Source: a virus (Duplodnaviria > Caudoviricetes). Taken from it: a stretch of 34,192 nucleotides of DNA. The stretch is taken from the IMG/VR virus record IMGVR_UViG_3300032135_000036, positions 1 to 34,192 of that record, one strand, 5' to 3'. Both the position numbers and the translations under genes were made by a program. The notes below the pieces were generated by a model. The model had not been told where the DNA came from. It searched no databases and saw nothing but the letters and a program-made list of their open reading frames with translations. Positions 3,706 to 21,287 of the stretch are shown here, in pieces. Within the stretch, counting starts at the first letter, position 1. Each line of letters opens with the position of its first letter.

Positions 3706-3727
3706 GCGCCATATTTTTGAAGTGCGA
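3706..3727 (-). repeat. 22-bp cassette-boundary site (TCGCACT-TCAAAAAT-ATGGCGC)
   Basis: Family member; 8 nt after the stop of 3736..3999 and just before the next RBS. Confidence 0.75.
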
Positions 3728-4342
3728 CATATCCTTTATTGACAATCTACCCTATAACTCATTACATAACTGTAATCTGATTTTAATGTATTTACTGCGT
3801 TTTTAGTTTCCCAAAACCATTTGCTTTTAGGATTAAAATTATCTTCTACACAGCTTCTTAGTGTTACCACTACTTTGTTTTTCCTGTTTAACATCTGGAA
3901 TTTAATCCATATTCCATTTTTAATCCATTTGATATTATAATATTTTAGTTGCTCCATAATTTCTTTTAGTTGTTTTTCCATTCTTTTCTCCTTTTCCAAT
4001 CACCATATTCACAAACTGAAAAACAGGCCACTAATATGATTAATATTCCTATAATTAAACCTCTAATTATGGCCATTTATTTTAATCTCCTTTACATCAA
4101 TAAATTCATGCCAAACCTCTTTTTTAATCCAATGCCTGCAATTTATACAATTATTTTTACTACAAGTTTTATTATCTTTACCAATTTTACAAACCAGTTT
4201 TTCTACCATAACTCCTGAACTCATTATTCACCCTCTATTTCTTAACTCTTTTATTTCTTCCCTTAATCCCTCTTGTACGGTAAATGTATTCCTTTATCAA
4301 ACATTTCTTTAGTTGTCATTTTATATCACTCCTTCGCCCTTT
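3728..4342 (-). repeat. Internally deleted duplicate of 15082..16228
   Basis: Four collinear blocks match by eye: 3728-3981/15082-15335, 4116-4243/15346-15473, 4234-4287/15643-15696, 4285-4342/16171-16228. Confidence 0.9.
3736..3999 (-). CDS. Hypothetical protein, paralog of 15090..15344
   Basis: Near-identical protein (MEKQL.EIMEQLKYYNIKW...SYRVDCQ). Confidence 0.75.
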   Translation of the reverse strand: MEKEKRMEKQLKEIMEQLKYYNIKWIKNGIWIKFQMLNRKNKVVVTLRSCVEDNFNPKSKWFWETKNAVNTLKSDYSYVMSYRVDCQ

Positions 4343-4373
4343 TTTCAAATAGTTCATATATTTGAAATACACA

Positions 4374-4463
4374 TTACGCACAATTAGTTTTCCCACACCT
4401 CTTACATACTCTACATACTTGATTTCTGTGTCTGCAAAAGAATTGTTTAAAGAATTTTTTCAT
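4374..4463 (-). CDS. 29-aa Cys-rich peptide (MKKFFKQFFCRH...CKRCGK)
   Basis: AGGAGG RBS; C-x-H...CxxC; flanked by degenerate 22-bp sites at 4351-4372 and 4490-4511; below the ORF track cutoff. Confidence 0.5.
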   Translation of the reverse strand: MKKFFKQFFCRHRNQVCRVCKRCGKTNCA

Positions 4464-4518
4464 AATTTCCTCCTACGTACTCTTCTCATAGTTCCTGTTT
4501 TTGAAGTATGAATTTAAA

Positions 4519-4692
4519 CTATTTTACATTACTTACTTTTTTACCTAAATCATCACCAAAAGCTATCAACTCATTTGCAAAATCGGACGTACCTACTTGT
4601 TGTAATCCTCTCATTCCCTTTGCTCCATACAACATAAATTTAACCATAAATCTTATAACTAAATACATAAATATTAATTGAGTTTTTTTCAT
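4519..4692 (-). CDS. 57-aa hypothetical protein with hydrophobic N-terminus
   Basis: AAAGGAG RBS, open frame MKKTQLILFMYLVIRF...; between sites 4710-4731 and 4490-4511. Confidence 0.55.
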   Translation of the reverse strand: MKKTQLIFMYLVIRFMVKFMLYGAKGMRGLQQVGTSDFANELIAFGDDLGKKVSNVK

Positions 4693-4709
4693 TTATTTTC
4701 TCCTTTCAT

Positions 4710-4731
4710 TCGTCATATAATCATATTCTGT
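4710..4731 (-). repeat. 22-bp cassette-boundary site (ACAGAAT-ATGATTAT-ATGACGA)
   Basis: 2 nt after the stop of 4734..4961. Confidence 0.65.
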
Positions 4732-4733
4732 TA

Positions 4734-4961
4734 TTAAAGTGGTTTTACTGTTTTCTTTAATTTATTCATTATCCTCTTGATGATTTTGTCATTTTCAGTA
4801 TCTGTAATACAGTTTCCAAAGAGTAAATTAAGCCTTGCATTATTTAACCTCTTGAATTGTTCTATAGCTTTTTCAGTAGCTACTAATCCTTGTTCTTCTA
4901 GTTGCTTTTCTACTGCAAGTGCTAATGCTCCAAAATGTATACCCATCTTTATTTTTCCCAT
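4734..4961 (-). CDS. Hypothetical protein (single-gene cassette)
   Basis: AAGGAGG RBS; bounded by sites on both sides. Confidence 0.65.
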   Translation of the reverse strand: MGKIKMGIHFGALALAVEKQLEEQGLVATEKAIEQFKRLNNARLNLLFGNCITDTENDKIIKRIMNKLKKTVKPL

Positions 4962-4980
4962 GTTAATACCTCCTTTTGCC

Positions 4981-5002
4981 TCGTCTTATTTAGCAATTGC
5001 GA
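4981..5002 (-). repeat. 22-bp cassette-boundary site (TCGCAAT-TGCTAAAT-AAGACGA)
   Basis: 1 nt after a TAA (5004-5006) and just upstream of the next RBS. Confidence 0.7.
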
Positions 5003-5170
5003 CTTAACTCTTATTTGAATGTTTTTCGTTTTTACACTTTCTACACACTTCTACAACGCGAGTGCAATGATGATCTGCAAACTCTAATAATTCTTCAAAA
5101 GGTGGAAATATTAAATCTTTACACCATGCACATACGTGAGCTGGTATTCTTATATTAGGATCTATTTTAT

Positions 5171-5560
5171 CTAAAATGGGATCTCACCATCCTCTATAGG
5201 TGTTACTCCGTTTGCATCTACTGGTGTAGTATCTTTAGATTTACTGGCCCATTCTATAAAATTAACTTCGTCTGCTATTATTTCAGTTACATATTTTCTA
5301 TTACCATCTTTAGCTTCATAGTTTCTAGTTTGAATGCTACCTGATACACTTAGTAGCTTTCCTTTTGCTGTATAATTCGCACACGCTTCTGCGCTCTTCC
5401 CAAATACTACTACTGGCATGAAATCTGCTTCAGGTTGTCCTTCTCTCTTAAATCGTCTATTTACTGCTATTGTAAATGTTGTTACTGCTGTTCCTGTTCC
5501 TTGTGCAAACTTTAGTTCAGGATCCTTTGTTGGTCTGCCTACTAAATTTACTTTATTCAT
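5171..5560 (-). CDS. ssb: Single-stranded DNA-binding protein
   Basis: MNKVNLVGR.TKDPEL...FTIAVNR, acidic C-terminus ending in IPF. Confidence 0.96.
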   Translation of the reverse strand: MNKVNLVGRPTKDPELKFAQGTGTAVTTFTIAVNRRFKREGQPEADFMPVVVFGKSAEACANYTAKGKLLSVSGSIQTRNYEAKDGNRKYVTEIIADEVNFIEWASKSKDTTPVDANGVTPIEDGEIPF

Positions 5561-5565
5561 TATAA

Positions 5566-5898
5566 TTACCTCGCTTTTTTTATTTTATTATTTTTAATAG
5601 CACCTCTAGCCCTAAGTTTTATACCACATTCGGATAAGCATTTACCCACTGTTTTTGGTGCAATACCGTATATTTTACCTATTTTTATCGTACTTAGATT
5701 TTCTATTAAATACATTTCTTTTATGCTCTGTATATTTTCTAAAATTTTCTTTTGCGTTTTTTTATTTCCACTACCAGCCATTTTAGGTATTTTTATTGGA
5801 ATATTCATTTTTTTCAATGATAGTTCTGGTGATAAATTATTATTCAATATACAAGCTATAAGCGCACCATAGTGTAAATCTAACTCATTAACTATCAT
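5566..5898 (-). CDS. Hypothetical protein with C-terminal HTH
   Basis: MY..ENLST.KIGKIYGIAPKTV..CL pattern. Confidence 0.55.
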   Translation of the reverse strand: MIVNELDLHYGALIACILNNNLSPELSLKKMNIPIKIPKMAGSGNKKTQKKILENIQSIKEMYLIENLSTIKIGKIYGIAPKTVGKCLSECGIKLRARGAIKNNKIKKAR

Positions 5899-6055
5899 CG
5901 CAATTTACTTTTAATAAGTGTTTCAATAATTATTGCAAGTTCTGTTTTTACGGATGAATTGTACCATTCTGCTCTTTCTTCTCCAGTGCTATCCCTAATA
6001 TCTTTGTTTATTAATTTCCCATTTTTATTTTTAAATTTAATAAATATTTGGTCCA

Positions 6056-6400
6056 TTAATATCCCTCCCTTTGTCTTTTTATATTTTCCGCATATTTTTT
6101 ATGATAAGCTTCTTCAATTTCTAATGGTGTAAATTCCATTGTATTTCCTATACTAAGGACAAAATGAAGTATATCTGCATATTCATCGAGTAGTCTTTCC
6201 CTACTCTCTTGTGGCTTATTTGACCAATATTTAAAACACCTAGTAGCATTTGCAAATTCTCCTACCTCCGTAAAAAGTGCTATTATCCTGTCATTTAAAA
6301 ACATTTTGTTGTTGCCATCAATATTTCCATCAGTTGCTTTAGCTACAATAAGTTCATCTAGTTCATTTTGTAGTTCATATAATTTTTCTAAAGTAATCAT
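6056..6400 (-). CDS. Dimeric dUTPase / MazG-like nucleotide pyrophosphatase
   Basis: ALFTEVGEFANATRCFKYWS, EYADILHF, YHKKYAENIKRQ..GY motifs. Confidence 0.9.
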   Translation of the reverse strand: MITLEKLYELQNELDELIVAKATDGNIDGNNKMFLNDRIIALFTEVGEFANATRCFKYWSNKPQESRERLLDEYADILHFVLSIGNTMEFTPLEIEEAYHKKYAENIKRQREGY

Positions 6401-6737
6401 TTTAATTCCCCCTTTTATCTTGTCTAAGGCGTGTCCTTATCTTGCAAGCATTATTAAATGTGTATTGACTTGCTTCTTTTTTTCCTGCTACGGATAATTT
6501 ATCCCTATACTTAAAATAATTTAGAGTGGCATTAACTTTTTCTTCTATGCTCAACACCTCAAAATTCATAATTTTATCTCCTTTTTTTTAAAATATTATA
6601 GGTCCATAAACTTAATTTCTGCATTTTAAACTCTCCATTATTTTTATATCTAGTAACTGCCATCATTTCAAGTGTAAATTTAATTAGCTTGTCTACTTCC
6701 TCTGCTATTTCTTCTTTTGTCCATAAGTCTTTATCAC

Positions 6738-7556
6738 TCATTTAACTATTCCTTTTAGCCTATAATTATTTTCTCTTCCCTCTATTTGTACCGTATACTC
6801 TTTACACATTTGTAATATTCTACTTCCTACCGCTTCATCAAAATCTAAAAGCTTATCTGCTGAAAATTCACTTGATACAATAACTGGAGAATGATTTAAA
6901 TATCTATGATTTATAATCTCGAACATTATATTTATATCTGATTCTGTTACTTTGCCTTTAAATAGATCATCTATAAGCAATATTTTTGCATTTTTATATT
7001 TGTTTAATTCTTTTTGATAATATTCTTCGTCTATCATATTTTGCTTTATTTTAGTTATTACATCTCTATAAGGCATATAGACTACTGATATATCCTTTTT
7101 TAAAAAATTAACTGCTAGCGCTATGCTTAAATGAGTTTTTCCACTACCTACTTGTCCTATAAATGCTATTGAATTGCTTCTTTCAGTTTTTATAGTTTCA
7201 AAGTTTTTATAGTATTTAATTGCAATTTCTTTTGCTTGTATTGATGATTTATTCCAGGCTATATAAGTAGTAAATGTTTGTTTTGCTTGTTCTGTATCAA
7301 TACCTGCTGCATCCCACATCTTTTTAGCTTTCTGTAGCTCATAACATTTACATCTTCTCATTAGTGGTTGATTTTCAGTGCTTACATCAATCCATGAAGT
7401 ATCTTTACATATTTCGCATTTATATGAGGTCAAGGTCTGCGATTTCTGATTCAGTAAGTTTGCTTCCTGTTGATTCTCCTGGCTTGTAATCAGACCATTT
7501 TCCCTTACTTTTTTCATTATTCTGCTTATAGAATCCATTTCCATTGTTATTAACAC
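6738..7556 (-). CDS. DnaC/IstB-like AAA+ helicase loader
   Basis: CxxC/CxC zinc motifs, Walker A GQVGSGKT, Walker B LLIDDL; follows the initiator. Start may be at 7544 or 7538. Confidence 0.92.
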   Translation of the reverse strand: MLITMEMDSISRIMKKVRENGLITSQENQQEANLLNQKSQTLTSYKCEICKDTSWIDVSTENQPLMRRCKCYELQKAKKMWDAAGIDTEQAKQTFTTYIAWNKSSIQAKEIAIKYYKNFETIKTERSNSIAFIGQVGSGKTHLSIALAVNFLKKDISVVYMPYRDVITKIKQNMIDEEYYQKELNKYKNAKILLIDDLFKGKVTESDINIMFEIINHRYLNHSPVIVSSEFSADKLLDFDEAVGSRILQMCKEYTVQIEGRENNYRLKGIVK

Positions 7557-8250
7557 CCTCTTTTTTTAGTGGGAATACTCCTTGATAGCAGTTCATAATA
7601 CTTTGGTTTAATATTTCAATCTTTTCATTATCGTTAGCAGCTAACTTATTTAATTTATCAATTGTTAATGTTAATGCTCTGTCTGTTAGAGGTTTTTTTA
7701 TTTTACTTCTCATTTCTTTAAATTCATTTAACGCTTGTATTAATAATTTATTTTCTATAGTGTTATTATCTTTAATTTCTTTTTCTTTACTTTTCTTTAC
7801 TTTACTTTTCTTTACTTTACTAGCGATGATTTGCGATGGCGATGTGATCGCACTGTTATCGCACTGCGATGATTCTGCGATACTAAGTTGATTATTCCAC
7901 CTTACTTCATTACCTTTTTTACCTGCTATACTCTTTTTCAACCTATAATTTTCTAAATATTCCATTCTTTCCATAAGACTTATTGAAAAGAAAAATTCAT
8001 CCTCTGTAAATTGGAATAATTTATAGTTTTTAACTACTGTTTCTACCTTTTGAGCTGTTGAATTATATCTGCGTGCTAATGCTGCTAGTAAGGATAATGG
8101 ATATTTATAATCAGGTTGATCTCTTAACGTTTCTACTAACATCCAAAATATTCCGTACCCTTCAAGCCCTAACTGTTCTATAAGCAATACACACTTTGGA
8201 TCATCTTTTGAATTACTGTCATGACTAAAATAGTAAGCATCTTTTTTCAT
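7420..8250 (-). CDS. Phage replication initiator (DUF4373/Lin1244-like)
   Basis: MKKDAYYFSHDSN..DD..K...GLEGYGIFW N-terminus; GGAGG RBS before ATG at 8250; upstream of the loader. Confidence 0.85.
   Translation of the reverse strand: MKKDAYYFSHDSNSKDDPKCVLLIEQLGLEGYGIFWMLVETLRDQPDYKYPLSLLAALARRYNSTAQKVETVVKNYKLFQFTEDEFFFSISLMERMEYLENYRLKKSIAGKKGNEVRWNNQLSIAESSQCDNSAITSPSQIIASKVKKSKVKKSKEKEIKDNNTIENKLLIQALNEFKEMRSKIKKPLTDRALTLTIDKLNKLAANDNEKIEILNQSIMNCYQGVFPLKKEGVNNNGNGFYKQNNEKSKGKWSDYKPGESTGSKLTESEIADLDLI
7822..7882. repeat. ATCGC(A)/GCGAT repeat cluster, probable lytic origin iterons within the initiator gene
   Basis: About 7 GCGAT/ATCGC copies in both orientations next to an A/T-skewed tract (7770-7820). 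Confidence 0.6.
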
Positions 8251-8322
8251 TTGAACCTCCGTATCTGTTAACAAAATTTTATTTGTTAAAATATTTGGCA
8301 TTAAATAATTTGTCTATTTACT

Positions 8323-8344
8323 GCGCCATATCTTAGTATTATGA
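8323..8344 (-). repeat. 22-bp cassette-boundary site (TCATAAT-ACTAAGAT-ATGGCGC)
   Basis: Left arm contains the TAA stop of 8339..8728. Confidence 0.7.
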
Positions 8345-8728
8345 AATAACTATTTTTAGTTTTTCTATAGCTTCTAGTGATAAATCTAACACCCATTCAT
8401 GCCCACATTCATCGCATTCTAACTCTATACTTTGTCCATCATCGTTATAATCGTATTTACTATGGTTATATCCCTTACATTTAGGGCATTCCATTAAATC
8501 AGTATTTGCTAAATCATCATCTAAATTTCCTAATTCTATTTCAGACTTATCACTATATAAATCCATGAATACAAGGCATCTTTCGCATAAATAATAATTA
8601 TCAAAATCACCCTCGTAAGTTCCGACTTCATTATTGCATTTGCTGCCAATTGGAATAATTCCACTGCAATATGCACATCTGTGTAATTTTCTAGTTTTCT
8701 TTATTTTTTTACTTTCCCAAAAGCTCAT
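8339..8728 (-). CDS. Multi-CxxC zinc-finger protein
   Basis: CAYC, CERC, CPKC, CDECGH. Confidence 0.7.
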   Translation of the reverse strand: MSFWESKKIKKTRKLHRCAYCSGIIPIGSKCNNEVGTYEGDFDNYYLCERCLVFMDLYSDKSEIELGNLDDDLANTDLMECPKCKGYNHSKYDYNDDGQSIELECDECGHEWVLDLSLEAIEKLKIVIS

Positions 8729-8745
8729 AATTTCTTATATCTCCT

Positions 8746-8767
8746 TCGCCATATTTTTATATTGTGT
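8746..8767 (-). repeat. 22-bp cassette-boundary site (ACACAAT-ATAAAAAT-ATGGCGA)
   Basis: 2 nt after the methyltransferase stop; right arm runs into the next AAGGAG RBS. Confidence 0.75.
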
Positions 8768-8769
8768 AA

Positions 8770-10062
8770 CTAACTCAATCTTTTAGCTATTTCATAAATA
8801 ACATTTACTGTACAAGCATCACCTGCACCTCGGTACATTTGGGTATCTGATGTTCCTGCTGCTGTTACCTTATCTGTTATGGAATCCTCTATGCCCTGAA
8901 GTCTCCAACACTCTTTTGGTGTAAGTTTTCTTATGCGATAATTAGTATCTAATACATAATTATCCTTTTGCACTGAGGTTAATGTATTTGAATTACCTGT
9001 TTTATTAATTTCAAGTCTTTGCTCTACATGGTTTCCAGCGGTTCTATCACTTGGATTTATCGGATTTCTACATCTTGAAGCTGCAATACAAGGTAATACT
9101 ACTGCTTGATTGCATGATGTAGTTAATGTATTAGCTTGTTGATGCCCTACACGCCCTCTCCTAGTCTTTGAATTAGGATGCTCTAGATTTATACTGTCAC
9201 CCTCATAAGCCTCAGCATAACCTTTTTTAGTGGCTTCTTTTACTTGTATATTTCCCATTGCATATCCATGAGTTCCAGCACATATTGTTGGGAAAATACC
9301 CTCTGTTCCGTAAACTTTTCCAGCTTGGCTGCCCTCATTGCTAACTTGCCCTTTAACTAATATTTGTTTAGGCTGCTTATATTCCATTGCTCCTAATGCG
9401 CCGACTATGCCAGATGTATCGTGTACCCATGCTCTAGTCGATTTATCCATAATAATTGAACCATCTGCCCTAATAACTGATTGTGCGGTAGTTCCTATTA
9501 CCTTAATGTCAAACGATTCTGTAATTCTTCCGATAGGAAATATTTTTTGTCCACCTCTTCCTCTAAGATGTCCAAGAGTGAACACTCTTTCCCTGTTGTG
9601 TGGGACTCCGTAATCTTTTGAGTTGAGCATTTGCCATTCAATATCGTACCCCAGCGATTCCATTTCAACGAGTATTTGGAAGTAGTCAAGTCCTTTATTT
9701 GATGAAAGCATTCCTCCAACATTTTCATATAATAACCATTTTGGTCTGTATTCTTTTTCAGTTTCCCTAACGAGTCTAAATACTTCTCGTACCAAAGAAC
9801 TTCTATCTCCTTCAAGTCCTGATCTTGCTCCTGCAAGGCTGAAATCTTGACAAGGTGCGCCAAATGCCCAGCAATCGGATTGAGGAATGTCAATTGCTCT
9901 GCATTCCCGAATGTCCCTACCTTCTGGCTCGTTTCCGAATATAACATTGTAAATCCCCCTTTTAAATTTATCCCATTCGATACTATAAACACATTCATGT
10001 CCTGCCTGTTCAAATCCCATTCTTACGGTTCCAATCCCACAAAACATATCTATAAATTTCAA
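8770..10062 (-). CDS. DNA (cytosine-5) methyltransferase
   Basis: Motif I FCGIG, IV GAPCQDFS, VI ENV, VIII HNRERVF, RKLTPKECWRLQG, X YRGAGDA; AAGGAGG RBS before TTG at 10062. Confidence 0.95.
   Translation of the reverse strand: MKFIDMFCGIGTVRMGFEQAGHECVYSIEWDKFKRGIYNVIFGNEPEGRDIRECRAIDIPQSDCWAFGAPCQDFSLAGARSGLEGDRSSLVREVFRLVRETEKEYRPKWLLYENVGGMLSSNKGLDYFQILVEMESLGYDIEWQMLNSKDYGVPHNRERVFTLGHLRGRGGQKIFPIGRITESFDIKVIGTTAQSVIRADGSIIMDKSTRAWVHDTSGIVGALGAMEYKQPKQILVKGQVSNEGSQAGKVYGTEGIFPTICAGTHGYAMGNIQVKEATKKGYAEAYEGDSINLEHPNSKTRRGRVGHQQANTLTTSCNQAVVLPCIAASRCRNPINPSDRTAGNHVEQRLEINKTGNSNTLTSVQKDNYVLDTNYRIRKLTPKECWRLQGIEDSITDKVTAAGTSDTQMYRGAGDACTVNVIYEIAKRLS
9498..9947 (-). CDS. Alternative-frame ORF nested in the methyltransferase (possible beta subunit)
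   Basis: AGGGGG RBS before ATG 9947; ends in SLLDILEEEVDKKYFLS, a segment resembling C5-MTase sequence. Confidence 0.6.
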   Translation of the reverse strand: MLYSETSQKVGTFGNAEQLTFLNPIAGHLAHLVKISALQEQDQDLKEIEVLWYEKYLDSLGKLKKNTDQNGYYMKMLEECFHQIKDLTTSKYSLKWNRWGTILNGKCSTQKITESHTTGKECSLLDILEEEVDKKYFLSEELQNRLTLR

Positions 10063-10085: not shown

Positions 10086-10107
10086 GCACCATATTTGTCA
10101 ATTGCGC
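10086..10107 (-). repeat. 22-bp cassette-boundary site (GCGCAAT-TGACAAAT-ATGGTGC)
   Basis: Between the stop at 10116 and the methyltransferase RBS. Confidence 0.75.
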
Positions 10108-12351: not shown

Positions 12352-12747
12352 ATTAATAATAATGCTGAAATCGGAAAGAGCATATTTAACGGAAGAAAAA
12401 AGAAAGACTTAACTATTAAAGAACTAGGAAATTTAATTGGACTATCTGAATCTACTGCCCAGAGATATGAGTCAGGTAAAATTAAAAATGTATCTATAGA
12501 CATTTTAAAGAAGTTTGCAGCAGCTTTAAATACAAAGGTTGAATTTTTAATTGGTTGGGATAAAGAGGTTATCAATACTAAAGAGGAAATTAGTTTTTTT
12601 ACTATTAAGTTGGTAAATGAATTGTTAAAAGAGGGAATTATAGATAATACAGAAGTGATCCCACAGGAGATAACTGATATGATAATAGCTGCTCTCAAAA
12701 CAGATTTAAAAAGAATAAAGGCAGAAAAAAGCACTAAGTTACTTTAG
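12352..12747 (+). CDS. CI-like XRE repressor with ATT start codon (131 aa)
   Basis: IGKSIFNGRKKKDLTIKELGNLIGLSESTAQRYESGKIKNVSIDILKKFAAALNTKVEFLIGW; AAGGAGG 8 nt before ATT; in-frame TAA at 12325. Missed by the ORF track. Confidence 0.88.
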   Translation: MNNNAEIGKSIFNGRKKKDLTIKELGNLIGLSESTAQRYESGKIKNVSIDILKKFAAALNTKVEFLIGWDKEVINTKEEISFFTIKLVNELLKEGIIDNTEVIPQEITDMIIAALKTDLKRIKAEKSTKLL

Positions 12748-13172: not shown

Positions 13173-13341
13173 TGTGGATAACTTTATTTAATCCACATTT
13201 AATCCACAATTTGGGGCCTATTCTATTCTTTCTTTGTATGATAAATATTAGTAATATAAGTATTGGTTTAGTTAGTATTAGTAGTGCGACCTTTTCGGAA
13301 CTCCGATTTACGGAATACCGTTTAACGGAACTCCGATTATG
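13173..13341. other. Putative plasmid-type replication origin (DnaA boxes, AT-rich repeats, 3 x 15-bp iterons)
   Basis: Perfect TGTGGATAA 13173-13181, TAATCCACA at 13189 and 13200; CGGAACTCCGATTTA / CGGAATACCGTTTAA / CGGAACTCCGATTAT at 13296-13340. Confidence 0.7.
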
Positions 13342-13642
13342 GGGTTCTGGTTGAAGCATCATAAACACTATATTCATATCCACTATAATGCCCTTTTTCA
13401 CCTCTTATTTTAGTTCTTATTACGTATCCAAATTTAATTAATTCATTTAGTCCTGAAGTTAAACTTTTTTCACCATCTGTAGAATGTTTTACAACTTCAC
13501 TTGTATAAACTTCCCAATCATAAGGTAAACTTAATAGATAAGACAATAGACCTTTTGCTTTCCAGCTTAATCTTTCATCTGCTAAAGTTTCATTTGGTAT
13601 TTGTGTAAATTTGTTTTCTCTTCTGTTTTTAATAATTGCCAT
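13337..13642 (-). CDS. Short winged-helix replication initiator-like protein
   Basis: FTQIPNE...DERLSWKAKGLLSYLLSLP.DW...DG..S..SGLNEL..FGY, typical N-terminal domain of Firmicute phage/plasmid Rep proteins. Confidence 0.75.
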   Translation of the reverse strand: MAIIKNRRENKFTQIPNETLADERLSWKAKGLLSYLLSLPYDWEVYTSEVVKHSTDGEKSLTSGLNELIKFGYVIRTKIRGEKGHYSGYEYSVYDASTRTP

Positions 13643-13761
13643 AATTTATTTACCCCTTTTTTATTGCATAGGAGGTTACTATAGTTTATACTATGTATAT
13701 AGAAATTTTATAGTAACCAACTATTTTAAAGAGTGCAGCTAACACTCTTTTTTTTATTTTA

Positions 13762-14337
13762 TCATGTTTTGTCATATTTCTCAATATATTCTACCAATGC
13801 CATGCTTACCATGTCCATGCTTTTAAATTCACTATACTTGCTCATAAACTTTCTAAACCGTTCCCAAACTTCCACATATAGCCTTACAGTAGTTATTTTA
13901 ACTTCTCCATGCAATTTATCACCATTAATCTTTAACTCGTTTAAATCCACCTCTATGATATTTTTCTGATTATTGAACCAGTTCAACATTTCCTCGATAT
14001 TGTCATGTTTTTCAATGATATTGAGTATTTTGTCTTTAGCTTCTTTATTATTAAATATATTTGTATTACTGTTATATTCACGCTTGGCTACTTCTTGTTT
14101 TGAAGAGGTTGCAGCAACTTCTAATATATTTGTATTATATTTATATTCATTATTTTTTATATATTGTTTCAGGTCCTTATCAAATATATATCCATATTTG
14201 GTCAAGCGATCTCTTACTGTAGTTCTTCCAATTCCAATTTTTTCACAAATTGATCTTAAAGTATTATTTTTAACTTCACTATTTATATATTGTAGCTGCT
14301 CCATTATTTTTAATTTATCAAATTCTAATCTATCCAA
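13762..14337 (-). CDS. Putative DNA-binding protein (N-terminal HTH, C-terminal ribbon-helix-helix-like)
   Basis: LRSICEKIGIGRTTVRDR; TTVRLYVEVWERF...DMVSMALVEYIEKY; GGAGG RBS before TTG. Confidence 0.65.
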   Translation of the reverse strand: MDRLEFDKLKIMEQLQYINSEVKNNTLRSICEKIGIGRTTVRDRLTKYGYIFDKDLKQYIKNNEYKYNTNILEVAATSSKQEVAKREYNSNTNIFNNKEAKDKILNIIEKHDNIEEMLNWFNNQKNIIEVDLNELKINGDKLHGEVKITTVRLYVEVWERFRKFMSKYSEFKSMDMVSMALVEYIEKYDKT

Positions 14338-14531
14338 TAAAAACACCTCCACTTATATTTGTAATATAAATATAAGTATAGCATTAATATATTCATAATA
14401 TATATGTATTTTTAAGTTGAAATAAAATAAACTTAGCATAATTACTAAGTTTAAAAGTATACCCCTTTAAATTTGACCTCTAAGGCATGTCTATATATAT
14501 TACCCTTACAATTGTACCTAATAATGGTTTG

Positions 14532-15051: not shown

Positions 15052-15059
15052 TTATAACC

Positions 15060-15081
15060 TCCTAATATTTTTGTATTATGA
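15060..15081 (-). repeat. 22-bp cassette-boundary site (TCATAAT-ACAAAAAT-ATTAGGA)
   Basis: 8 nt after the stop of 15090..15344, the same position as site 3706 relative to the paralog. Confidence 0.65.
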
Positions 15082-15089
15082 CGTATCCT

Positions 15090-15344
15090 TTATTGACAAT
15101 CTACCCTATAACTCATTACATAACTGTAATCTGATTTTAATGTATTTACTGCACTTTCAGTTTTCCAGAACCATTTGCTTTTAGGATTAAAATTATCTTC
15201 TACACAACTTCTTAATGTTACTACTACTTTGTTTTTATTATTAAGCATCTGGAATTTAATCCATATACCATCTTTAATCCATTTAATATTATAATATTTG
15301 AGTTGTTCCATTATTTCGGCTAGTTGTTTTTCCATCCTTGCCAC
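15090..15344 (-). CDS. Hypothetical protein, paralog of 3736..3999
   Basis: Near-identical protein sequence. Confidence 0.75.
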   Translation of the reverse strand: MARMEKQLAEIMEQLKYYNIKWIKDGIWIKFQMLNNKNKVVVTLRSCVEDNFNPKSKWFWKTESAVNTLKSDYSYVMSYRVDCQ

Positions 15345-15454
15345 ACCTCTTTTTTAATCCAATGTCTGCAATTATCACAATCATTTTTACTACAAGTTTT
15401 ATTATCTTTACCAATTTTACAAACCATTTTTTCTACCATAACTCCTGAACTCAT
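15320..15454 (-). CDS. 44-aa Cys-rich peptide (paralog starts at 4224)
   Basis: MSSGVMVEKMVCKIGKDNKTCSKNDCDNCRHW; start overlaps the upstream stop. Confidence 0.5.
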   Translation of the reverse strand: MSSGVMVEKMVCKIGKDNKTCSKNDCDNCRHWIKKEVWQGWKNN

Positions 15455-15702
15455 TATTCACCCTCTATTTCTTTTAATAGTTGAACTAATTTATCACGTA
15501 ACTCTAATGTCATTGCTATATATCCACAATCTTTTTTACGTTCTATTGCTATTTCAAAGGCTTTTATAACATCTTTTAAATTTGATTTATCCATAATATC
15601 TATATTTTTATTCCTTGCTATTGCAGATTCTGCATAGTCTAATCTATTTCTTAACTCTTTTATTTCTTCCCTTAATCCCTCTTGTACGGTAAATGTTTTC
15701 AT
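15454..15702 (-). CDS. Hypothetical protein
   Basis: Coupled ORF with AAGGAG RBS. Confidence 0.6.
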   Translation of the reverse strand: MKTFTVQEGLREEIKELRNRLDYAESAIARNKNIDIMDKSNLKDVIKAFEIAIERKKDCGYIAMTLELRDKLVQLLKEIEGE

Positions 15703-15902
15703 TGTTTAATCTCCTTTATCAATTCTCTGATTTCATTTTCTAAATGTCTTACGCAAATATCCATAGTATAACTTAAATAATATCCATTTTTACGGTCTTC
15801 ATATCCATCAAGTACCGCTTTAACTGTATAAGTATATCCACTATCCTTTATAAACTTATCAATTTTAAAATAAGGCTCATTTCTTATTTCTTCAATTTTC
15901 AT
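15699..15902 (-). CDS. Hypothetical protein
   Basis: AAGGAG RBS. Confidence 0.6.
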   Translation of the reverse strand: MKIEEIRNEPYFKIDKFIKDSGYTYTVKAVLDGYEDRKNGYYLSYTMDICVRHLENEIRELIKEIKQ

Positions 15903-15932
15903 TTTATCTCCTTTTCTATTTGAAGTATGAAA

Positions 15933-16205
15933 TTATTCTTCTAAATCTCTTGATAAATGTATATATTCGCTAATCCATTGTTTTGGGATTTCCATATCAG
16001 CACCAGCATATCTACCCATAGCACTTTTTATATCTTGCAACCTTTTCAATTTCCAAATATCATTAGGCATTAATCCTAGTGGAGGTTTTTGCTTTACGTC
16101 CATATTTACATATTCATCGCATATATTTTCCGATGCACAGTGATAGCAATTAAAACCTTGTCCCTTACAGTGTATTCTTTTATCAAATATTTCTTTAGTT
16201 GTCAT
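15933..16205 (-). CDS. Hypothetical protein (Cys-rich N-terminus, KPPLGLMP motif)
   Basis: AAGGAG RBS; bounded by sites 16220-16241 and degenerate 15909-15930. Confidence 0.65.
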   Translation of the reverse strand: MTTKEIFDKRIHCKGQGFNCYHCASENICDEYVNMDVKQKPPLGLMPNDIWKLKRLQDIKSAMGRYAGADMEIPKQWISEYIHLSRDLEE

Positions 16206-16219
16206 TTTATATCACTCCT

Positions 16220-16241
16220 TCGCCCTTTAATCATATTATCT
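16220..16241 (-). repeat. 22-bp cassette-boundary site (AGATAAT-ATGATTAA-AGGGCGA)
   Basis: Contains the TAA of 16236..16406; homology with 4285-4342 stops inside its spacer. Confidence 0.65.
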
Positions 16242-16612: not shown

Positions 16613-16620
16613 CCATTTAA

Positions 16621-16875
16621 TTAAAATTTTAAACTTTTGTAATAGTTGTTTATTCCTTTTCTGTTTTTAAAAGCTATATTTATTAATTTGTTAAACTCTA
16701 TTTGCTTTTCTTCATCAAATATTCTAGCACCAGCTGCGTTCCATCTGTAAGTATTTTCAGTTTGCACTTCGTTTAGAGTGTAAAAAAATCCTTCCCATTT
16801 TGTGTTTTCAAATCCTCCCATTGCATCCATTAAGAATTGCCTAGCATCTTCTTTATTTTTTATCACTTTAACCAC
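16621..16875 (-). CDS. Hypothetical protein
   Basis: First ORF after the strong promoter. Confidence 0.6.
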   Translation of the reverse strand: MVKVIKNKEDARQFLMDAMGGFENTKWEGFFYTLNEVQTENTYRWNAAGARIFDEEKQIEFNKLINIAFKNRKGINNYYKSLKF

Positions 16876-16910
16876 TCCTTACGTTTTGTTTTATTTGTTT
16901 TGTTACTCTT

Positions 16911-16939
16911 ATTTTACACCGTATAGCGTACGTTGTCAA
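16911..16939 (-). promoter_or_regulatory. Strong sigma-A promoter driving the small-gene array
   Basis: TTGACA-N17-TAAAAT; palindromic CGTA-N5-TACG in the spacer. Confidence 0.75.
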
Positions 16940-17081
16940 TACATATTATAAATATAATACAAATATATTTTTGTATAAAAAAAGAAAGGTTTTACCCTCT
17001 CTTTTAACTATTCTCTTTCGTTTTCCTTATATGTTACAAAAAATAAAAATAAACCCCAAGGATTTCTCCCCAGGGTATTAA

Positions 17082-17396
17082 TTATTCTATGCTATCATTT
17101 ATTTCATTATCATCTAGTTTATCTTTAGCTTTAACATATAAGTAATGTATTATATTTCTCATTCGTTCTCTATTTATAAAAATAGTAATTTTTTTAGGTA
17201 GGAATTGAAAAGCCTTATCTACTACCCAGTTTTCTTGTTTTTGTCCACCATTTAAAATAAAATCCTTTGCCTTGTCTTTTGCCTGAAGCATTAAAGCAAA
17301 TAGAATTGTTTTAAATTTCTGCCACTCCAATGCTGCGTATAATACTACTGCTAATACTAATATAATTATAAATCTATATTCAAATATTAAATCCAT
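17082..17396 (-). CDS. Holin-like membrane protein
   Basis: N-terminal transmembrane segment, GG.KQ..WV motif, directly downstream of the endolysin. Confidence 0.6.
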   Translation of the reverse strand: MDLIFEYRFIIILVLAVVLYAALEWQKFKTILFALMLQAKDKAKDFILNGGQKQENWVVDKAFQFLPKKITIFINRERMRNIIHYLYVKAKDKLDDNEINDSIE

Positions 17397-17455
17397 TTTT
17401 AATAATTACCTCCTAAAATTTATTTAGATAGAGAAGATCACCCAACCTTTCGTTG

Positions 17456-18163
17456 TTATTTAGTTACCGCTGCTATATATGCCTTTAGTTTTATTTTAGC
17501 TGCTGTGGTATTAGTTCCGTTTAATCCATCCTCTACAAGTGGTTTACCGTTAGCACCTCGTATTCCCACCCTATTACATACCTTTTGCAATAAAATAATT
17601 TTGTTATAGTTATTTGACACTGTTTTCACCTCTTTATTTAATAAAATACCTACATCAAAAATATTATGGTCAACTGGAATACTACCTATTATTTGTGAAT
17701 CTGAATATTGCCACCCTACACTTTTAATATTAGGCCTATTTTTATTGTAATAAGCTATCCATAAAGGTAAATCTTTAACAGTATAATCCAGGTTATTATT
17801 ATAAAAATAAAGCCCTGTATAAATACAAGGTTCTTTTTTTTGTGATATTAAATAATCAGCAAACTTTCTTACTCTTAAACTTGCACCTACTGCATCTGTT
17901 TCAACATCTATAGCATATTTACAATCACTCTCTAACCCTGCTATAGCCCATAAAAAATGATTAGCTTCGTCAATCGGATTATTAGTCCTTAAAAAATGAT
18001 AAAACCCAATTTTCAAACCTTTTGCTTTAGCTTTTTGATATTGTAATTTTAATAGAGGATTAGTATATGTAAGCCCCTCTGTTGCTTTAATATAAACTAT
18101 TTGAGCCTTTATTTTGCTGAAATCTAAATTTAATTGATATGCTGAAATGTCTATGCCTTGCAT
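17456..18163 (-). CDS. Endolysin, GH25 muramidase
   Basis: GIDISAYQ, YIKATEG, GFYHF, DVE, LWIAYY, WQYS; C-terminal peptidoglycan-binding-like LVEDG..G..T. Confidence 0.95.
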   Translation of the reverse strand: MQGIDISAYQLNLDFSKIKAQIVYIKATEGLTYTNPLLKLQYQKAKAKGLKIGFYHFLRTNNPIDEANHFLWAIAGLESDCKYAIDVETDAVGASLRVRKFADYLISQKKEPCIYTGLYFYNNNLDYTVKDLPLWIAYYNKNRPNIKSVGWQYSDSQIIGSIPVDHNIFDVGILLNKEVKTVSNNYNKIILLQKVCNRVGIRGANGKPLVEDGLNGTNTTAAKIKLKAYIAAVTK

Positions 18164-18174
18164 TATATAACCCC

Positions 18175-18378
18175 CTACCTCTCTATTCTCTCGATTAATT
18201 TATCTAGTTTAATATTAACTGTATTTGTTAATTCTCCTATTATTTGCTGATATTTTGCTTCTCTTTCTTCACTTTTCAAATCCCTTGTTTCCTGTTTTTT
18301 CAAAACATAAATAAATAAAAAGAAAAACATTGCATATCCTAGTCCTTGTCCTAAAGCCATTTTCATTATTGCATCCAT
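18175..18378 (-). CDS. BhlA/UviB-family holin
   Basis: QGLGYAMFFFLFIYVLK...REAKYQQII..L. Confidence 0.88.
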   Translation of the reverse strand: MDAIMKMALGQGLGYAMFFFLFIYVLKKQETRDLKSEEREAKYQQIIGELTNTVNIKLDKLIERIER

Positions 18379-18568
18379 TTGTAAATCCCTCCCATTGCCT
18401 TTTTTCTTGATAGAGGGTATTATAAATTTATCCTCTAAACTAATCTTTAGTGGGTAAGTAATTTGCAGTGGTATACGTTAATATACCACTGCATTTTATT
18501 ATTTTTTGGTATTAAAAAAGGACCTTTTAAGGCCCCTTATATTGTATTATTTAAATATAACGCTAATT

Positions 18569-18590
18569 ACATCATATTATCCAATTGTGC
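18569..18590 (-). repeat. 22-bp cassette-boundary site (GCACAAT-TGGATAAT-ATGATGT)
   Basis: 7 nt after the SGNH gene stop; direct degenerate repeat of 21014-21035. Confidence 0.75.
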
Positions 18591-18597
18591 AACATTG

Positions 18598-19755
18598 CTA
18601 AATTGCAATAGCCTTTATGCCATCAAGCGTTTGTACCCTCAATGGTGATGCTGAACTATCTGTTATATCTACAAATCGAAAACATTTTATTCCATCATAT
18701 GCTTGTATTCGTAAAGAATTTTTATCGATACTCTCTATATTGTAATATGGAATATTTAAGGTTTCGTTTGTTAACTGTAATTTTATATATCCTTCTGTAG
18801 TTAAAACAGGCAAGGATATTTCTATTTGTGAAGCCACAAAATCTGCAAATATCTGTTTGCCTACACTTCCGAGGTGATATGTGTCTGTTTGCCATGTCAA
18901 GCTATCCCAAATTGATGATGTTGTAATATATTTAGTATTGATTTTTGATACTGACAATTCTTGCAATGCTGTACCATATTGGTCAAAATTCTTACTATTA
19001 ACAACATTTCTTGGTGCTTGTAATAGATATATTATTGCTTGTGGTTGGTCTGCTCTGATTTTATCAATAAGCGAACTAATAGAGGTTTTGTAACTCGCTA
19101 TACTTATACCTCCAGCGTAGTCATTAACACCTAAACATATTACTACGTCATTAAAAACACCATCACCATATTTATTTATTCCACCAGCTTGATATGGGTA
19201 ATAAGAATTAATATCACTTGCTTTAGCACCACCATATGCAATAGGGTATACATTATATTTAGTTGTGTCCATAAGCCTAATCCAGTCATTCCATGCACTC
19301 ATCCAACTATCTCCTAGACACATAACCTTTGTACTACCTACGGGATAAGGAAGAATTTGACCCCCATCATTAATTGTTATGCTTTTCAACTTAATATATG
19401 GTACTCCATCAATTTGATTAAAAGGCTGATTTGCGGATAATTTAAATATTACATCGTGGACATTTGAATCGGGTAAATTAATAACAACACTTCGTTCACC
19501 TGTAACAACCTCACCAATATTAGCTAAATTATTTGATGTTGTTACTATGTCGTTATCAATGTTTGAAGCAATAGCACAAGGAGCACCATCCGCTACGGTT
19601 TTAATGTCACAGGTTAGTGTAATGGTTGAAGTTCCTATTACTCGAAACCTTACAAGATTACCTTGCCATGCTGATTGCATACCTATTATAGGAGTTAAAA
19701 ATCTACCACTATAGAGTATATTTTCATTACTATAAGGTATTATCATTATATCCAC
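18598..19755 (-). CDS. SGNH/GDSL hydrolase (putative carbohydrate deacetylase)
   Basis: CLGDSW, GG, LGVND, DTYH catalytic blocks after a beta-rich N-terminal domain. Confidence 0.85.
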   Translation of the reverse strand: MDIMIIPYSNENILYSGRFLTPIIGMQSAWQGNLVRFRVIGTSTITLTCDIKTVADGAPCAIASNIDNDIVTTSNNLANIGEVVTGERSVVINLPDSNVHDVIFKLSANQPFNQIDGVPYIKLKSITINDGGQILPYPVGSTKVMCLGDSWMSAWNDWIRLMDTTKYNVYPIAYGGAKASDINSYYPYQAGGINKYGDGVFNDVVICLGVNDYAGGISIASYKTSISSLIDKIRADQPQAIIYLLQAPRNVVNSKNFDQYGTALQELSVSKINTKYITTSSIWDSLTWQTDTYHLGSVGKQIFADFVASQIEISLPVLTTEGYIKLQLTNETLNIPYYNIESIDKNSLRIQAYDGIKCFRFVDITDSSASPLRVQTLDGIKAIAI

Positions 19756-21287
19756 CGCATAGCTACTGATAAATTAGCTGTTGTTGTATCTGTTGTCGAC
19801 CATGTACTGGTGGCTACATCATAATTTTTGCAAGTATAACCGTTTATACTATATATTGCGGTTCTGTAAAGTACGGTTTTTTCAACTCCTGTTCCTGCTA
19901 CTAAAACGAACCAATATTCACCCGCAACCAAATTCAAGGGTGACAATAAAGTGGCATCTCTCCATACATAATCAGATTCAGCTACATTTAATGTTGTTGT
20001 TTTATCATCTGCAATTGGTATATATATTATTTCTTCTCTTATTAATGCTCCATAGATGCCACCATTATTAGCATATACTTTTAATTTTAATGGTAAAAAC
20101 ACATTATTTAAAAAGTTAGTGCCATCTGAACATTTACATACTTTTGCTCCGAATTTTGAAATGGTTATATCATTTAATGTTACCAATGTAGACGATTTAA
20201 ATGGATTACTTCCACCTATCGATTTAAATGTTGAATAAGCATTATTTAGTGTAGTATTAAATCCTAACATCCACATTTGACCTATTTTGGGTTGTATAGG
20301 ATTATCAAATAATTGCTCAATTAATAATTTATTTTGTAATACAAAAATATCATTAGCATTTGTTTTTATTTCATCTTTTAATGTAGAAAAGGTACTTATT
20401 ATTGGGATAACAAAATACTCAATGGAATTTTTCAAGGTTGTTGAACTTAAAAATATTATATTATTATCAATAGCATCACCAACAAAGGTATAATTAGTGA
20501 AGCCTGTCTGCAAAGTATAGTGTAATTTGCAAACTCCCGTATAGATTCCAATATACCATCCTTTCTGCACTTGTAGTTGTAGAGGAAATATATTTTTTCC
20601 TGCTATAGCCGTAACTTGGGATTCATTTTGTAAATTAAAAGTTCCATCAGCATTTTTAGAAAATATTTTTATTTTAATAGCCCCTGCCTCGGTTTGATAA
20701 GTTGAAACTGATGTTAATTTACCATTTAATTTTATAGGGTCTTCATTAATTTTTGTTCTTCCTGCTGTACCCTCTGAACCTAATAAAGCTTTTACAATAC
20801 TGTGATTATCAACTGTAAATCCTGTTATATCATCAGATAACATTGAAACATCGATAGTTTTTTCAGCGGGAATATTACTATAAGTTATTGGAGATACTCC
20901 CGTAATAAGCGATTTTGTATGGTCATCAAAATCACTTTCAGCATTAATTTTTATAGACTTATCTCTCTTTAAAGCATCTTGACTATCTACATAAGTTACA
21001 TCTGATTTTTCTGTCGTCATATTTGCCAATGACGAATCAATTTTTTCAATTTTAACTGGTAAACTTACTTCTCCACTTCTCGCTGCAACAATTTCAGCAT
21101 TGCTACTACCTGCATTAATGATTAAGTCATCAAATACAATTTTCTGTGCATCTTGTTTAGCTGTAGTACTTACTGTTTCTGTATTAATAACCTCTATACC
21201 ACTTGCTAGTGCTTCTCTTACTTCTTCGCCTAATACTGCCTGTCTTATTTCAGCTACTTTACTTGTAACGTCTGCCAAAAATATCAT
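19746..21287 (-). CDS. Tail fibre / receptor-binding protein
   Basis: N-terminal IRQAVLGEEVRE...NAEIVAAR baseplate anchor, beta-rich C-terminus, position after Tal. Start ATG 21287 or TTG 21278. Confidence 0.75.
   Translation of the reverse strand: MIFLADVTSKVAEIRQAVLGEEVREALASGIEVINTETVSTTAKQDAQKIVFDDLIINAGSSNAEIVAARSGEVSLPVKIEKIDSSLANMTTEKSDVTYVDSQDALKRDKSIKINAESDFDDHTKSLITGVSPITYSNIPAEKTIDVSMLSDDITGFTVDNHSIVKALLGSEGTAGRTKINEDPIKLNGKLTSVSTYQTEAGAIKIKIFSKNADGTFNLQNESQVTAIAGKNIFPLQLQVQKGWYIGIYTGVCKLHYTLQTGFTNYTFVGDAIDNNIIFLSSTTLKNSIEYFVIPIISTFSTLKDEIKTNANDIFVLQNKLLIEQLFDNPIQPKIGQMWMLGFNTTLNNAYSTFKSIGGSNPFKSSTLVTLNDITISKFGAKVCKCSDGTNFLNNVFLPLKLKVYANNGGIYGALIREEIIYIPIADDKTTTLNVAESDYVWRDATLLSPLNLVAGEYWFVLVAGTGVEKTVLYRTAIYSINGYTCKNYDVATSTWSTTDTTTANLSVAMRWI
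21014..21035 (-). repeat. 22-bp site with perfect arms inside the tail fibre gene (TCGTCAT-TGGCAAAT-ATGACGA)
   Basis: Perfect 7-bp inverted arms and 8-bp spacer; encodes SSLANMT. Confidence 0.8.

What the first reader, a model, noticed from the sequence alone, without database searches (positions are those of the whole stretch)
3706..21035. Candidate integron-like gene-cassette system: dispersed, co-oriented 22-bp (7-8-7) sites delimiting accessory genes
Seen in sequence (minus strand): 21014 TCGTCAT-TGGCAAAT-ATGACGA; 18569 GCACAAT-TGGATAAT-ATGATGT; 16220 AGATAAT-ATGATTAA-AGGGCGA; 15060 TCATAAT-ACAAAAAT-ATTAGGA; 10086 GCGCAAT-TGACAAAT-ATGGTGC; 8746 ACACAAT-ATAAAAAT-ATGGCGA; 8323 TCATAAT-ACTAAGAT-ATGGCGC; 4981 TCGCAAT-TGCTAAAT-AAGACGA; 4710 ACAGAAT-ATGATTAT-ATGACGA; 3706 TCGCACT-TCAAAAAT-ATGGCGC. 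Weaker copies lie at 4334, 4351, 4490 and 15909. All face the same way. Apart from 21014, each lies within about 8 nt of a stop codon or contains it, usually just before the next RBS, so genes are packaged as site-RBS-ORF-stop-site units. I did not notice them between core head/tail genes. Established: inverted arms around a 6-8 bp asymmetric spacer is the layout of tyrosine recombinase sites, and direct orientation gives excision/integration. Inference: the phage gains, loses and moves single-gene cassettes by site-specific recombination at several loci. The enzyme is unassigned; it may be 1202..1759 or supplied in trans.
Basis: partly seen in the sequence, partly recalled or inferred. Interest (0 to 1): 0.9.

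Follow-up and report, generated by a model that had tools for sequence, protein, structure and literature searches.

The report
Built-in gene-swap sites in clostridial phages
Short same-direction DNA sites in this clostridial-type phage mark the exact points where related phages have exchanged tail tips and small early genes, so they are likely the crossover sites of an undescribed recombinase-driven module-swapping system.

Summary
The motif is real. Nine strong co-oriented sites are confirmed and three weak ones are plausible; 4351 and 4490 are not supported. It is a dif-type site (11-6-11, core TCGCAATW-N6-WATKGCGA), shared by many clostridial prophages just after stop codons.

Site 21014 lies in frame in the tail gene. 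In relatives, near-identical tail genes switch to unrelated C-termini at its centre (39 of 40 pairs), and homology resumes at a second site after the tail stop, like 18569. Rare codons at the site show selection on the DNA itself.

The window's 185-aa recombinase has its own different sites and is probably not the enzyme. The best candidate is a ~330-aa XerD-like phage recombinase, absent here but encoded by relatives, including a phage in the same sequencing run. Gut-phage and Bacillus relatives keep much of the layout with other site sequences.

It is not an integron, a shufflon or a pdif module, but works like a cross between them. No recombination product was seen directly, and no clean empty/full pair was found. 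Ten literature searches found no description. The scan noted analogous site arrays on other DNA, and one clostridial tail shufflon that may be related.

The parts
21014..21035 (-). Strong site, in frame in the tail gene (reads S-S-L-A-N-M-T); left boundary of the swappable tail module; spacer GGCAAA
18569..18590 (-). Strong site 8 nt after the last tail-module stop; right boundary of the tail module; spacer GGATAA; its downstream flank is shared with L227/L236, whose upstream genes differ
21036..21278 (-). Conserved N-terminal anchor (about 81 codons) of the tail protein
18580..21024 (-). Tail module between site centres: variable tail C-terminus (gene ends 19746) plus a 385-aa GDSL/SGNH-like gene (18598-19755)
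   Evidence: (PF13472 E 3.6e-7, below the curated cut-off)
16220..16241 (-). Weak site; start of the duplicated segment; spacer TGATTA, same as 4710
15909..15930 (-). Weak site 3 nt after the stop of the 90-aa gene
   Evidence: 10.8 bits
15060..15081 (-). Strong site; end of the duplicated block; spacer CAAAAA, same as 3706
10086..10107 (-). Strong site before the methyltransferase gene
8770..10062 (-). C5 DNA methyltransferase gene, a single-gene unit between sites 10086 and 8746 (1340 bp)
8746..8767 (-). Strong site
8339..8728 (-). 129-aa Cys-rich gene, a single-gene unit between 8746 and 8323 (423 bp)
8323..8344 (-). Strong site overlapping a stop codon
4981..5002 (-). Strong site downstream of ssb; spacer GCTAAA is shared with the post-ssb sites of L118, L119, L122, G008 and G024, which are followed by different sequences
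4734..4961 (-). 75-aa gene, a single-gene unit between 4981 and 4710 (271 bp)
4710..4731 (-). Strong site
4334..4355 (-). Weak site; start of the decayed copy of the 16220 segment
3706..3727 (-). Strong site; end of the duplicated block
3711..3985 (-). 275-bp block, 90% identical to 15065-15339; the identity ends at position 17 of both sites
2417..2540 (-). Leader homologous to the one that precedes the 330-aa recombinase in L118/L119; here it runs straight into the ArpU-like gene, so the candidate enzyme gene is absent
1202..1759 (-). 185-aa tyrosine recombinase (catalytic domain only); probably not the enzyme for these sites
1072..1179 (-). Two palindromes of another type (1072-1102, 1152-1179), also seen behind the AT-rich homologs of the 185-aa recombinase; likely its own target

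Best explanation
The repeats mark the exact points where related clostridial phages have exchanged tail C-termini and early genes, and they are likely dif-type crossover sites of a phage-encoded XerD-like tyrosine recombinase that this phage lacks and would borrow in trans. Shown: an 11-6-11 quasi-palindrome, co-oriented, placed after stop codons or in frame in the tail gene; sequence identity between relatives switches inside the spacer; the tail module is replaced between two such sites; rare codons preserve the DNA site. Inferred: a ~330-aa SAM-like + catalytic recombinase cuts at the spacer edges and needs only partial spacer homology (tail sites keep the first two to three spacer bases). 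Sites with different spacers would then act like heterospecific sites, so modules would be exchanged mainly between co-resident phages or prophages, by double crossover or through a circle, rather than constantly excised.
For: Window-only matrix on 435 kb of 19 relatives: 33 sense and 0 antisense hits >=14 bits, and 24 of 866 post-stop segments against 0.29 shuffled. Tail proteins: the junction peptide is in 73 of 150 homologs against 15 of 430 control windows, and identity falls to about 7% after it. In 44 tail genes with a protein-defined junction, NCG occurs in 32 of 40 (2.4 expected), TTG in 39 of 44 (5.9) and NCG at +6 in 27 of 30 (2.5), while the control codon is 1 of 30 (2.8). 39 of 40 close pairs switch, with identity 0.97 at position 11 and 0.51 at 12. 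A second site follows the tail stop in 23 of 40 loci against 2 of 216 control stops, and homology resumes there in 13 pairs. The window's own duplicated block ends in the site. A 248-aa gene follows a site behind three different upstream sequences. Neighbours are kept in 0 of 75 pairs at site junctions against 46 of 467 at site-less ones. Enzyme: it sits between tail and lysis genes in phiCp-D and TPELB_ph1, with a site 54-184 nt upstream in 7 of 17 loci. Post-stop sites occur in 39 of 58 AT-rich recombinase loci against 2 of 10 loci holding only the 185-aa enzyme. A gut-phage branch has the same tail layout with another site, CTAAA-N6-TTTAG. Run X1 holds both this phage and recombinase-bearing L122.
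Against: No recombination product was seen: none of the three joints or the one bridged gap in run X1 links two sites, and one loose end lies at 4961, 20 nt beyond site 4981, not in its spacer (contigs only). No clean empty/full cassette pair was found among these divergent phages. The window, G008 and G011 carry sites without the 330-aa gene. Only 3 of the 87 tail rows had it within the fetched DNA, and 19 of 58 recombinase loci show no post-stop site. The matrix was trained on many of those loci. Pairs and codon counts come from related groups and are not independent. Site variant is confounded with host lineage, and the host's own Xer-adjacent palindrome has the same geometry and outer bases. 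In Bacillus phages only 9 of 51 homology-block ends touch a site (about 9% expected), so most mosaic junctions there arise otherwise.
Confidence: 0.65

Rival explanations
1. Same crossover role, but the enzyme is the host's single Xer recombinase acting on degenerate dif mimics, as for pdif modules.
For: A Xer homolog is in 41 of 41 Clostridiaceae genomes. A perfect 11-6-11 palindrome with the same outer TCGC/GCGA was found in 21 of 25 loci around that gene, upstream where inspected. This would explain sites in phages that lack the 330-aa gene. The gut-phage site has the same inner CTAAA as this host palindrome.
Against: The Clostridium phage sites conserve different inner bases (CAAT against CTAA; A 0.96 and T 0.95 where the host has T 0.86 and A 1.0). 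They score at most 4.7 bits under the host matrix, against 37 for host sites. A phage recombinase clade separate from host Xer often lies next to the sites. The host site for the gut clade could not be tested.
Confidence: 0.13
2. The sites are short linkers for homologous or relaxed (Red-like) recombination, as proposed for PeSLs, with no dedicated recombinase.
For: Conserved junction sequence would bias breakpoints. In Bacillus phages most block ends lie away from sites.
Against: Copies are only 22-28 bp and degenerate. The switch is confined to a few bases in the spacer. The dyad symmetry and the rare codons on the variable side (NCG at +6 in 27 of 30) are not needed for homology-driven exchange.
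Confidence: 0.1
3. The sites are operators or stoperators of a phage or host regulator, and breakpoints coincide only because mosaic junctions fall at gene ends.
For: Co-oriented intergenic repeats at gene junctions are the layout of mycobacteriophage stoperators (PMC3029335, passages). Neighbour conservation is low (10%) even at site-less junctions.
Against: Sites are split at breakpoints: the left half goes with the upstream gene and the right half with the downstream one. One class lies in frame inside a tail gene, exactly at the domain swap. The motif is shared by phages with no detectable homolog of this phage's repressor (many loci do not reach the immunity region, so this point is weak).
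Confidence: 0.07
4. The window's 185-aa recombinase is the enzyme.
For: It is the only recombinase in the window. Its 1075 palindrome shares inner bases with the motif (9.6 bits).
Against: It has no SAM-like core-binding domain. Its AT-rich homologs are followed by their own paired palindromes, and 10 such loci hold 2 cassette sites in 159 kb.
Confidence: 0.05

Closest known systems
Rin shufflon of Bifidobacterium and Eggerthella prophages (PMC6109161, PMC8778435; passages read)
   Same: Constant receptor-binding N-terminus, one crossover site inside the gene and a second direct copy right after its 3' end, and an armless XerD-like recombinase next to it.
   Different: Rin stores silent inverted tips and flips them within one genome at an 11-bp asymmetric site. 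Here no inverted stored tips were found, the site is a symmetric dif-type 22-28-mer, the same site also punctuates early genes, and tips differ between phages.
pdif modules of Acinetobacter plasmids (PMC9771954; passages read)
   Same: Xer-type arm-spacer-arm sites that bound cargo modules.
   Different: pdif sites are host XerC/XerD sites on plasmids and flank modules in inverse orientation (from a title in that paper's reference list). These sites are all co-oriented, differ from the host palindrome at the inner bases, lie in phage operons and in a coding frame, and go with a phage recombinase clade.
Integron cassettes and phage CALINs (PMC9892861; passages read)
   Same: RBS-ORF units separated by co-oriented sites, and arrays that can lack the enzyme and would use it in trans.
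   Different: No attC hairpin or GTTRRRY-box architecture and no IntI. The sites are dispersed over three regions, and one class fuses protein domains.
PeSL cassettes of T4-type phages (PMC2839356; passages read)
   Same: Repeated intergenic elements act as linkers for modular shuffling of small phage genes.
   Different: PeSLs are about 100-bp promoter/stem-loop elements with variable crossover zones and no known recombinase. Here the element is 22-28 bp with a narrow crossover zone.
Mycobacteriophage stoperators (PMC3029335; passages read)
   Same: Many intergenic copies oriented with transcription.
   Different: Stoperators are 13-bp asymmetric repressor-specific sites and are not described there as exchange points.

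Membership tests
Integron / CALIN | IntI-family integrase | tested here: not met
   The 330-aa candidate scores 92.7 bits on TIGR02249 (cut-off 265) and the 185-aa enzyme 44.8
Integron / CALIN | attC: long imperfect hairpin on one strand with R''/R' boxes | tested here: not met
   Site plus 20 nt on each side folds at only 0 to -5.6 kcal/mol, with no extended stem; conservation spans about 28 bp. No attC model was run.
Integron / CALIN | Co-oriented single-gene RBS-ORF units between sites | tested here: met
   Units 10086-8746, 8746-8323 and 4981-4710 hold one gene each; other units hold several
Integron / CALIN | Excised circles and empty sites | tested here: inconclusive
   None in the contigs of run X1 or among divergent relatives
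Rin/Min-type shufflon | Constant N-terminus joined in frame to a variable C-terminus at a crossover site | tested here: met
Rin/Min-type shufflon | Second direct site right after the gene's 3' end | tested here: met
   Site 18569; 23 of 40 tail loci against 2 of 216 control stops
Rin/Min-type shufflon | Silent alternative tips behind inverted sites in the same genome | tested here: not met
   0 antisense hits >=14 bits in 435 kb; 3 antisense hits >=11 downstream of 44 tail junctions, none at a stop
Rin/Min-type shufflon | Adjacent armless tyrosine recombinase | tested here: inconclusive
   Absent from the window. Present between tail and lysis genes in L158, L159, L195, L199 and L295, and in the early region in L118-L122
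pdif / Xer-dif modules | 11-6-11 arm-spacer-arm geometry | tested here: met
pdif / Xer-dif modules | Arms match the host dif | tested here: not met
   At most 4.7 bits against 37 under the host-palindrome matrix; that this palindrome is the host dif is itself inferred
pdif / Xer-dif modules | Inversely oriented sites around a module | tested here: not met
   All sites are co-oriented
pdif / Xer-dif modules | Recombined by host Xer | not testable with these tools
   Needs a binding or recombination assay
PeSL cassettes | About 100-bp element with a stem-loop | tested here: not met
PeSL cassettes | Contains a promoter | not tested
   No promoter scan was run
Stoperator | Near-identical asymmetric site specific to one repressor group | tested here: not met
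   Degenerate dyad shared across many Clostridiaceae prophages; the repressor comparison was weak

The most novel reading that the evidence does not exclude
Temperate phages across Bacillota share a programmed module-exchange system. A phage clade of Xer-like recombinases and lineage-specific C-W4-N6-W4-G sites (CAATW in Clostridiaceae, CTAAA in gut phages, CAAAA in Bacillus cereus-group phages), pre-installed after early genes and in frame in tail genes, let co-resident phages trade receptor-binding tips and accessory genes like heterospecific cassette exchange. These would be the enzyme-served 'linker sequences' of the modular theory of phage evolution.
Probability: 0.45. Interest if true: 0.92.

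Novelty: new variant of a known kind. Interest (0 to 1): 0.82.

Why it matters
Whether phage mosaicism comes from random illegitimate joins or from dedicated linker sites is a long-standing question (discussed in PMC2839356). Here a defined 28-bp site, a narrow crossover zone and a named candidate enzyme make a site-specific route directly testable. It would also explain how Bacillota phages change their receptor-binding domain without storing silent copies, give a function to a common unexplained tail-recombinase-holin gene order, and supply a new recombinase/site pair with natural heterospecific spacers.

Tried and rejected
Searches that gave nothing useful: the exact-pattern scan of viral contigs gave 83 stretches (80 fetched), mostly isolated hits or repeats in unrelated DNA, and was not used as evidence. 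Viral-contig scans with the 84-aa duplicated gene and with the single tail N-terminus found no relatives, and neither did tblastn of the tail N-terminus against the phage collection.

Strict IUPAC patterns on five host genomes found 0 and 1 matches. The first pattern was one base short, and the second missed even the known G008 sites, so they say nothing about the host chromosome.

The search for empty/full cassette pairs gave none with sites at all three junctions. Run X1 showed no site-joined contigs, but contigs drop rare variants. The host Xer query found no match at E<=1e-40 in the Lachnospiraceae genome G384, so the host site there is untested.

The count of the gut-type motif near recombinases was noisy and confounded by GC, so only the tail alignments are used. 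The tree is the quick one, with a long-branch warning. No in-frame tail site was found for Bacillus phage BMBtp3.

My early view that homologs of the 185-aa enzyme wholly lack sites was too strong: 2 of 10 loci have one. Sites 4351 and 4490 were rejected. The hit at 7848 is read as an origin repeat inside the replication gene (inference). No structure or complex prediction was run.


Full report
The window is a 34-kb temperate siphovirus-type genome read mainly on the minus strand. Its close relatives are prophages of Clostridium genomes, so a clostridial host is inferred.

Observation. All listed 22-mers are present. Nine score >=15 bits on the minus strand, none on the plus strand, against 0.075 per shuffled strand; leave-one-out holds for 8 of 10, is marginal for 15060 and fails for 16220. 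A matrix from 103 sites of relatives ranks the nine strong sites 1-9, supports 4334, 16220 and 15909 weakly, rejects 4351 and 4490, and finds nothing >=11 bits in the head/tail core (not fully independent, as the relatives' set was seeded from the window). In the reverse test, a matrix from nine window sites found 33 sense and 0 antisense hits >=14 bits in 435,423 bases of 19 relatives. 23 of the 33 start within -8..+20 of a stop (5.7% of positions), and 24 of 866 post-stop segments carry a hit against 0.29 after shuffling (I chose the region bounds). The consensus of 112 post-stop sites is a dyad with weak outer A-N-T bases, that is 11-6-11 with core TCGCAATW-N6-WATKGCGA. This is the geometry of the dif sites printed in PMC3025954.

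Breakpoints in the early region. The window's own 275-bp duplicate ends at position 17 of sites 3706 and 15060, which share a spacer. The second duplicate begins in 4334/16220. A 248-aa gene follows a site behind three different upstream sequences (L119, L122, G001), and the post-ssb site keeps its spacer while the downstream sequence changes. Among 112 sites, 5 pairs shared only the upstream flank, 15 only the downstream flank and none both. For homologous genes within 3 kb of a site, the next gene was kept in 0 of 75 pairs with a site against 46 of 467 without, and the previous gene in 2 of 350 against 39 of 500 (pairs are not independent, and the baseline is low). No clean empty/full pair was found.

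The tail site. 21014 is in frame. In the 150 best of 481 homologs of the N-terminal 91 residues, the junction peptide occurs in 73 against 15 of 430 control windows, and pairwise identity drops to 6-10% after it. I fetched 129 loci and scored 87 distinct tail rows. 44 were AT-rich and long enough and had a protein-defined junction. In these, rare codons build the DNA dyad: NCG 32 of 40 (2.4 expected), TTG 39 of 44 (5.9) and NCG on the variable side 27 of 30 (2.5), while a control codon was 1 of 30 (2.8). Of 40 pairs >=80% identical just upstream, 39 continue in unrelated sequence; identity is 0.97 at site position 11 and 0.51 at position 12 (the pairs come from about eight groups). A second direct site follows the tail module in 23 of 40 loci (best of up to three stops) against 2 of 216 single control stops. 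In 13 pairs homology resumes there, including the window's 18569 with L227 and L236. The tail module is therefore replaced between two sites. No inverted stored tips were found.

The enzyme. The 185-aa recombinase has only the catalytic domain. It is followed by its own paired palindromes, also seen behind its AT-rich homologs, and 10 such loci hold 2 sites in 159 kb. Relatives encode a 330-aa recombinase with SAM-like and catalytic domains, below the cut-offs for XerC, XerD and IntI. It lies either behind a leader that the window keeps without the gene or between tail and lysis genes. It is in 48 of 369 scored Clostridiaceae genomes. A site lies 54-184 nt upstream of it in 7 of 17 loci. 39 of 58 AT-rich loci have post-stop sites, 70 in 739 kb, against 1 in 135 kb of host chromosome (partly circular). 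In a quick tree, 46 such recombinases form a clade apart from host Xer (long-branch warning). In a gut-phage branch, 20 of 21 pairs among 7 tail genes diverge at an in-frame CTMAA-N6-TTTAG-type site near codon 200, and a similar site lies at or after the tail stop. Run X1 holds both the window phage and recombinase-bearing L122, so supply in trans is possible. Against: the window, G008 and G011 have sites without the gene, and 3 of 87 tail rows had it nearby. The host Xer (41 of 41 genomes) has a palindrome of the same geometry in 21 of 25 loci around its gene, but with different inner bases, and phage sites score at most 4.7 bits against 37 under its matrix.

Extension. Bacillus phage BMBtp3 has tail, a 25%-identical recombinase, then lysis genes. 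It carries ACAAAA-N6-TTTTGT-like sites at 11 of 22 early junctions (0.9 shuffled; 0 of 18 late; the consensus was read from this same phage). BceA1 matches BtCS33 at 100% for 5,328 bp up to such a site and phiS58 at 99.7% for 1,040 bp from the same site, with one shared spacer. Overall, however, only 9 of 51 block ends among five phages touch a site (about 9% expected). The link of this variant to the clostridial one is by architecture only.

Mechanism. Shown: geometry, placement, narrow crossover zone, DNA-level selection, double-ended replacement. Inferred from general tyrosine-recombinase chemistry (own knowledge): cleavage at the spacer edges with a short homology check. Neighbouring window sites have different spacers, which would limit self-excision and favour exchange with spacer-matched sites of other phages. 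No product was observed: run X1 has no site-joined contig, and one loose end lies 20 nt beyond site 4981.

Comparison. It works like a Rin shufflon without stored inverted tips, like pdif modules without host-type or inverted sites, and like a CALIN without attC. It fails a defining test of each (see Membership tests). Ten full-text searches returned no description of this site or system; the library lacks most subscription papers. I read matched passages only, with no whole text or supplement, of PMC9881135, PMC8138268, PMC9892861, PMC6109161, PMC12823448, PMC8778435, PMC3025954, PMC9771954, PMC2839356, PMC4168068 and PMC3029335. The dif tables in the supplements of PMC3025954, which I did not open, may list the clostridial host palindrome. 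The label 'ArpU-like' for 1970-2416 is recalled from similar gene orders (PHROGs says transcriptional regulator).

Verdict. A real, lineage-wide feature, most likely recombinase crossover sites for module exchange between phages (about 0.83 for a site-specific role, 0.65 with the 330-aa phage enzyme). New variant of a known kind; interest 0.82.

Noticed in passing
L394-L417 (host chromosomes), around the conserved xer gene: Perfect 11-6-11 palindrome (ACTTCGCTAAA-N6-TTTAGCGAAGT) in 21 of 25 Clostridiaceae loci, just upstream of the gene where inspected. It is a likely symmetric dif for a single Xer, as difSL is for XerS; an autoregulatory site is not excluded.
   Followed up: partly
window 1072-1179: Two palindromes behind the 185-aa recombinase, also seen in L001-L011 and L122; probably its own target, perhaps a resolution site.
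   Followed up: partly
window 12352-12747 (+): HTH repressor gene of 131 aa that appears to start at ATT behind a strong RBS; missed by the ORF list.
   Followed up: partly
window 13337-14352: No integrase at the usual lysogeny position. Instead there is a short replication-initiator-like ORF (101 aa) and a phrog_2727 gene, which suggests a plasmid-like prophage or a decayed module.
   Followed up: no
window 3711-4350 versus 15065-16236: A second cluster of early-type small genes sits downstream of the lysis genes and is partly duplicated. The 3.7-4.35 kb copy has lost internal segments at short shared sequences.
   Followed up: partly
window 7821-7880: TCGC-rich direct and inverted repeats inside the replication initiator gene, shared with L113; likely origin iterons that score 13.8 bits on the site matrix.
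   Followed up: no
L358-L367 and L125: Gut phages swap tail C-termini at an in-frame S-L-K-E-[DE] site with a second site at the tail stop, next to a related recombinase.
   Followed up: partly
L420-L424: Bacillus cereus-group phages carry a third site variant after early genes; BceA1 is a chimera joined at one such site.
   Followed up: partly
window 2420-2540; L118, L119, L126, L130 upstream of the 330-aa recombinase: Conserved leader with two hairpin-like repeats before the recombinase or, in the window, before the next gene; function unknown.
   Followed up: no
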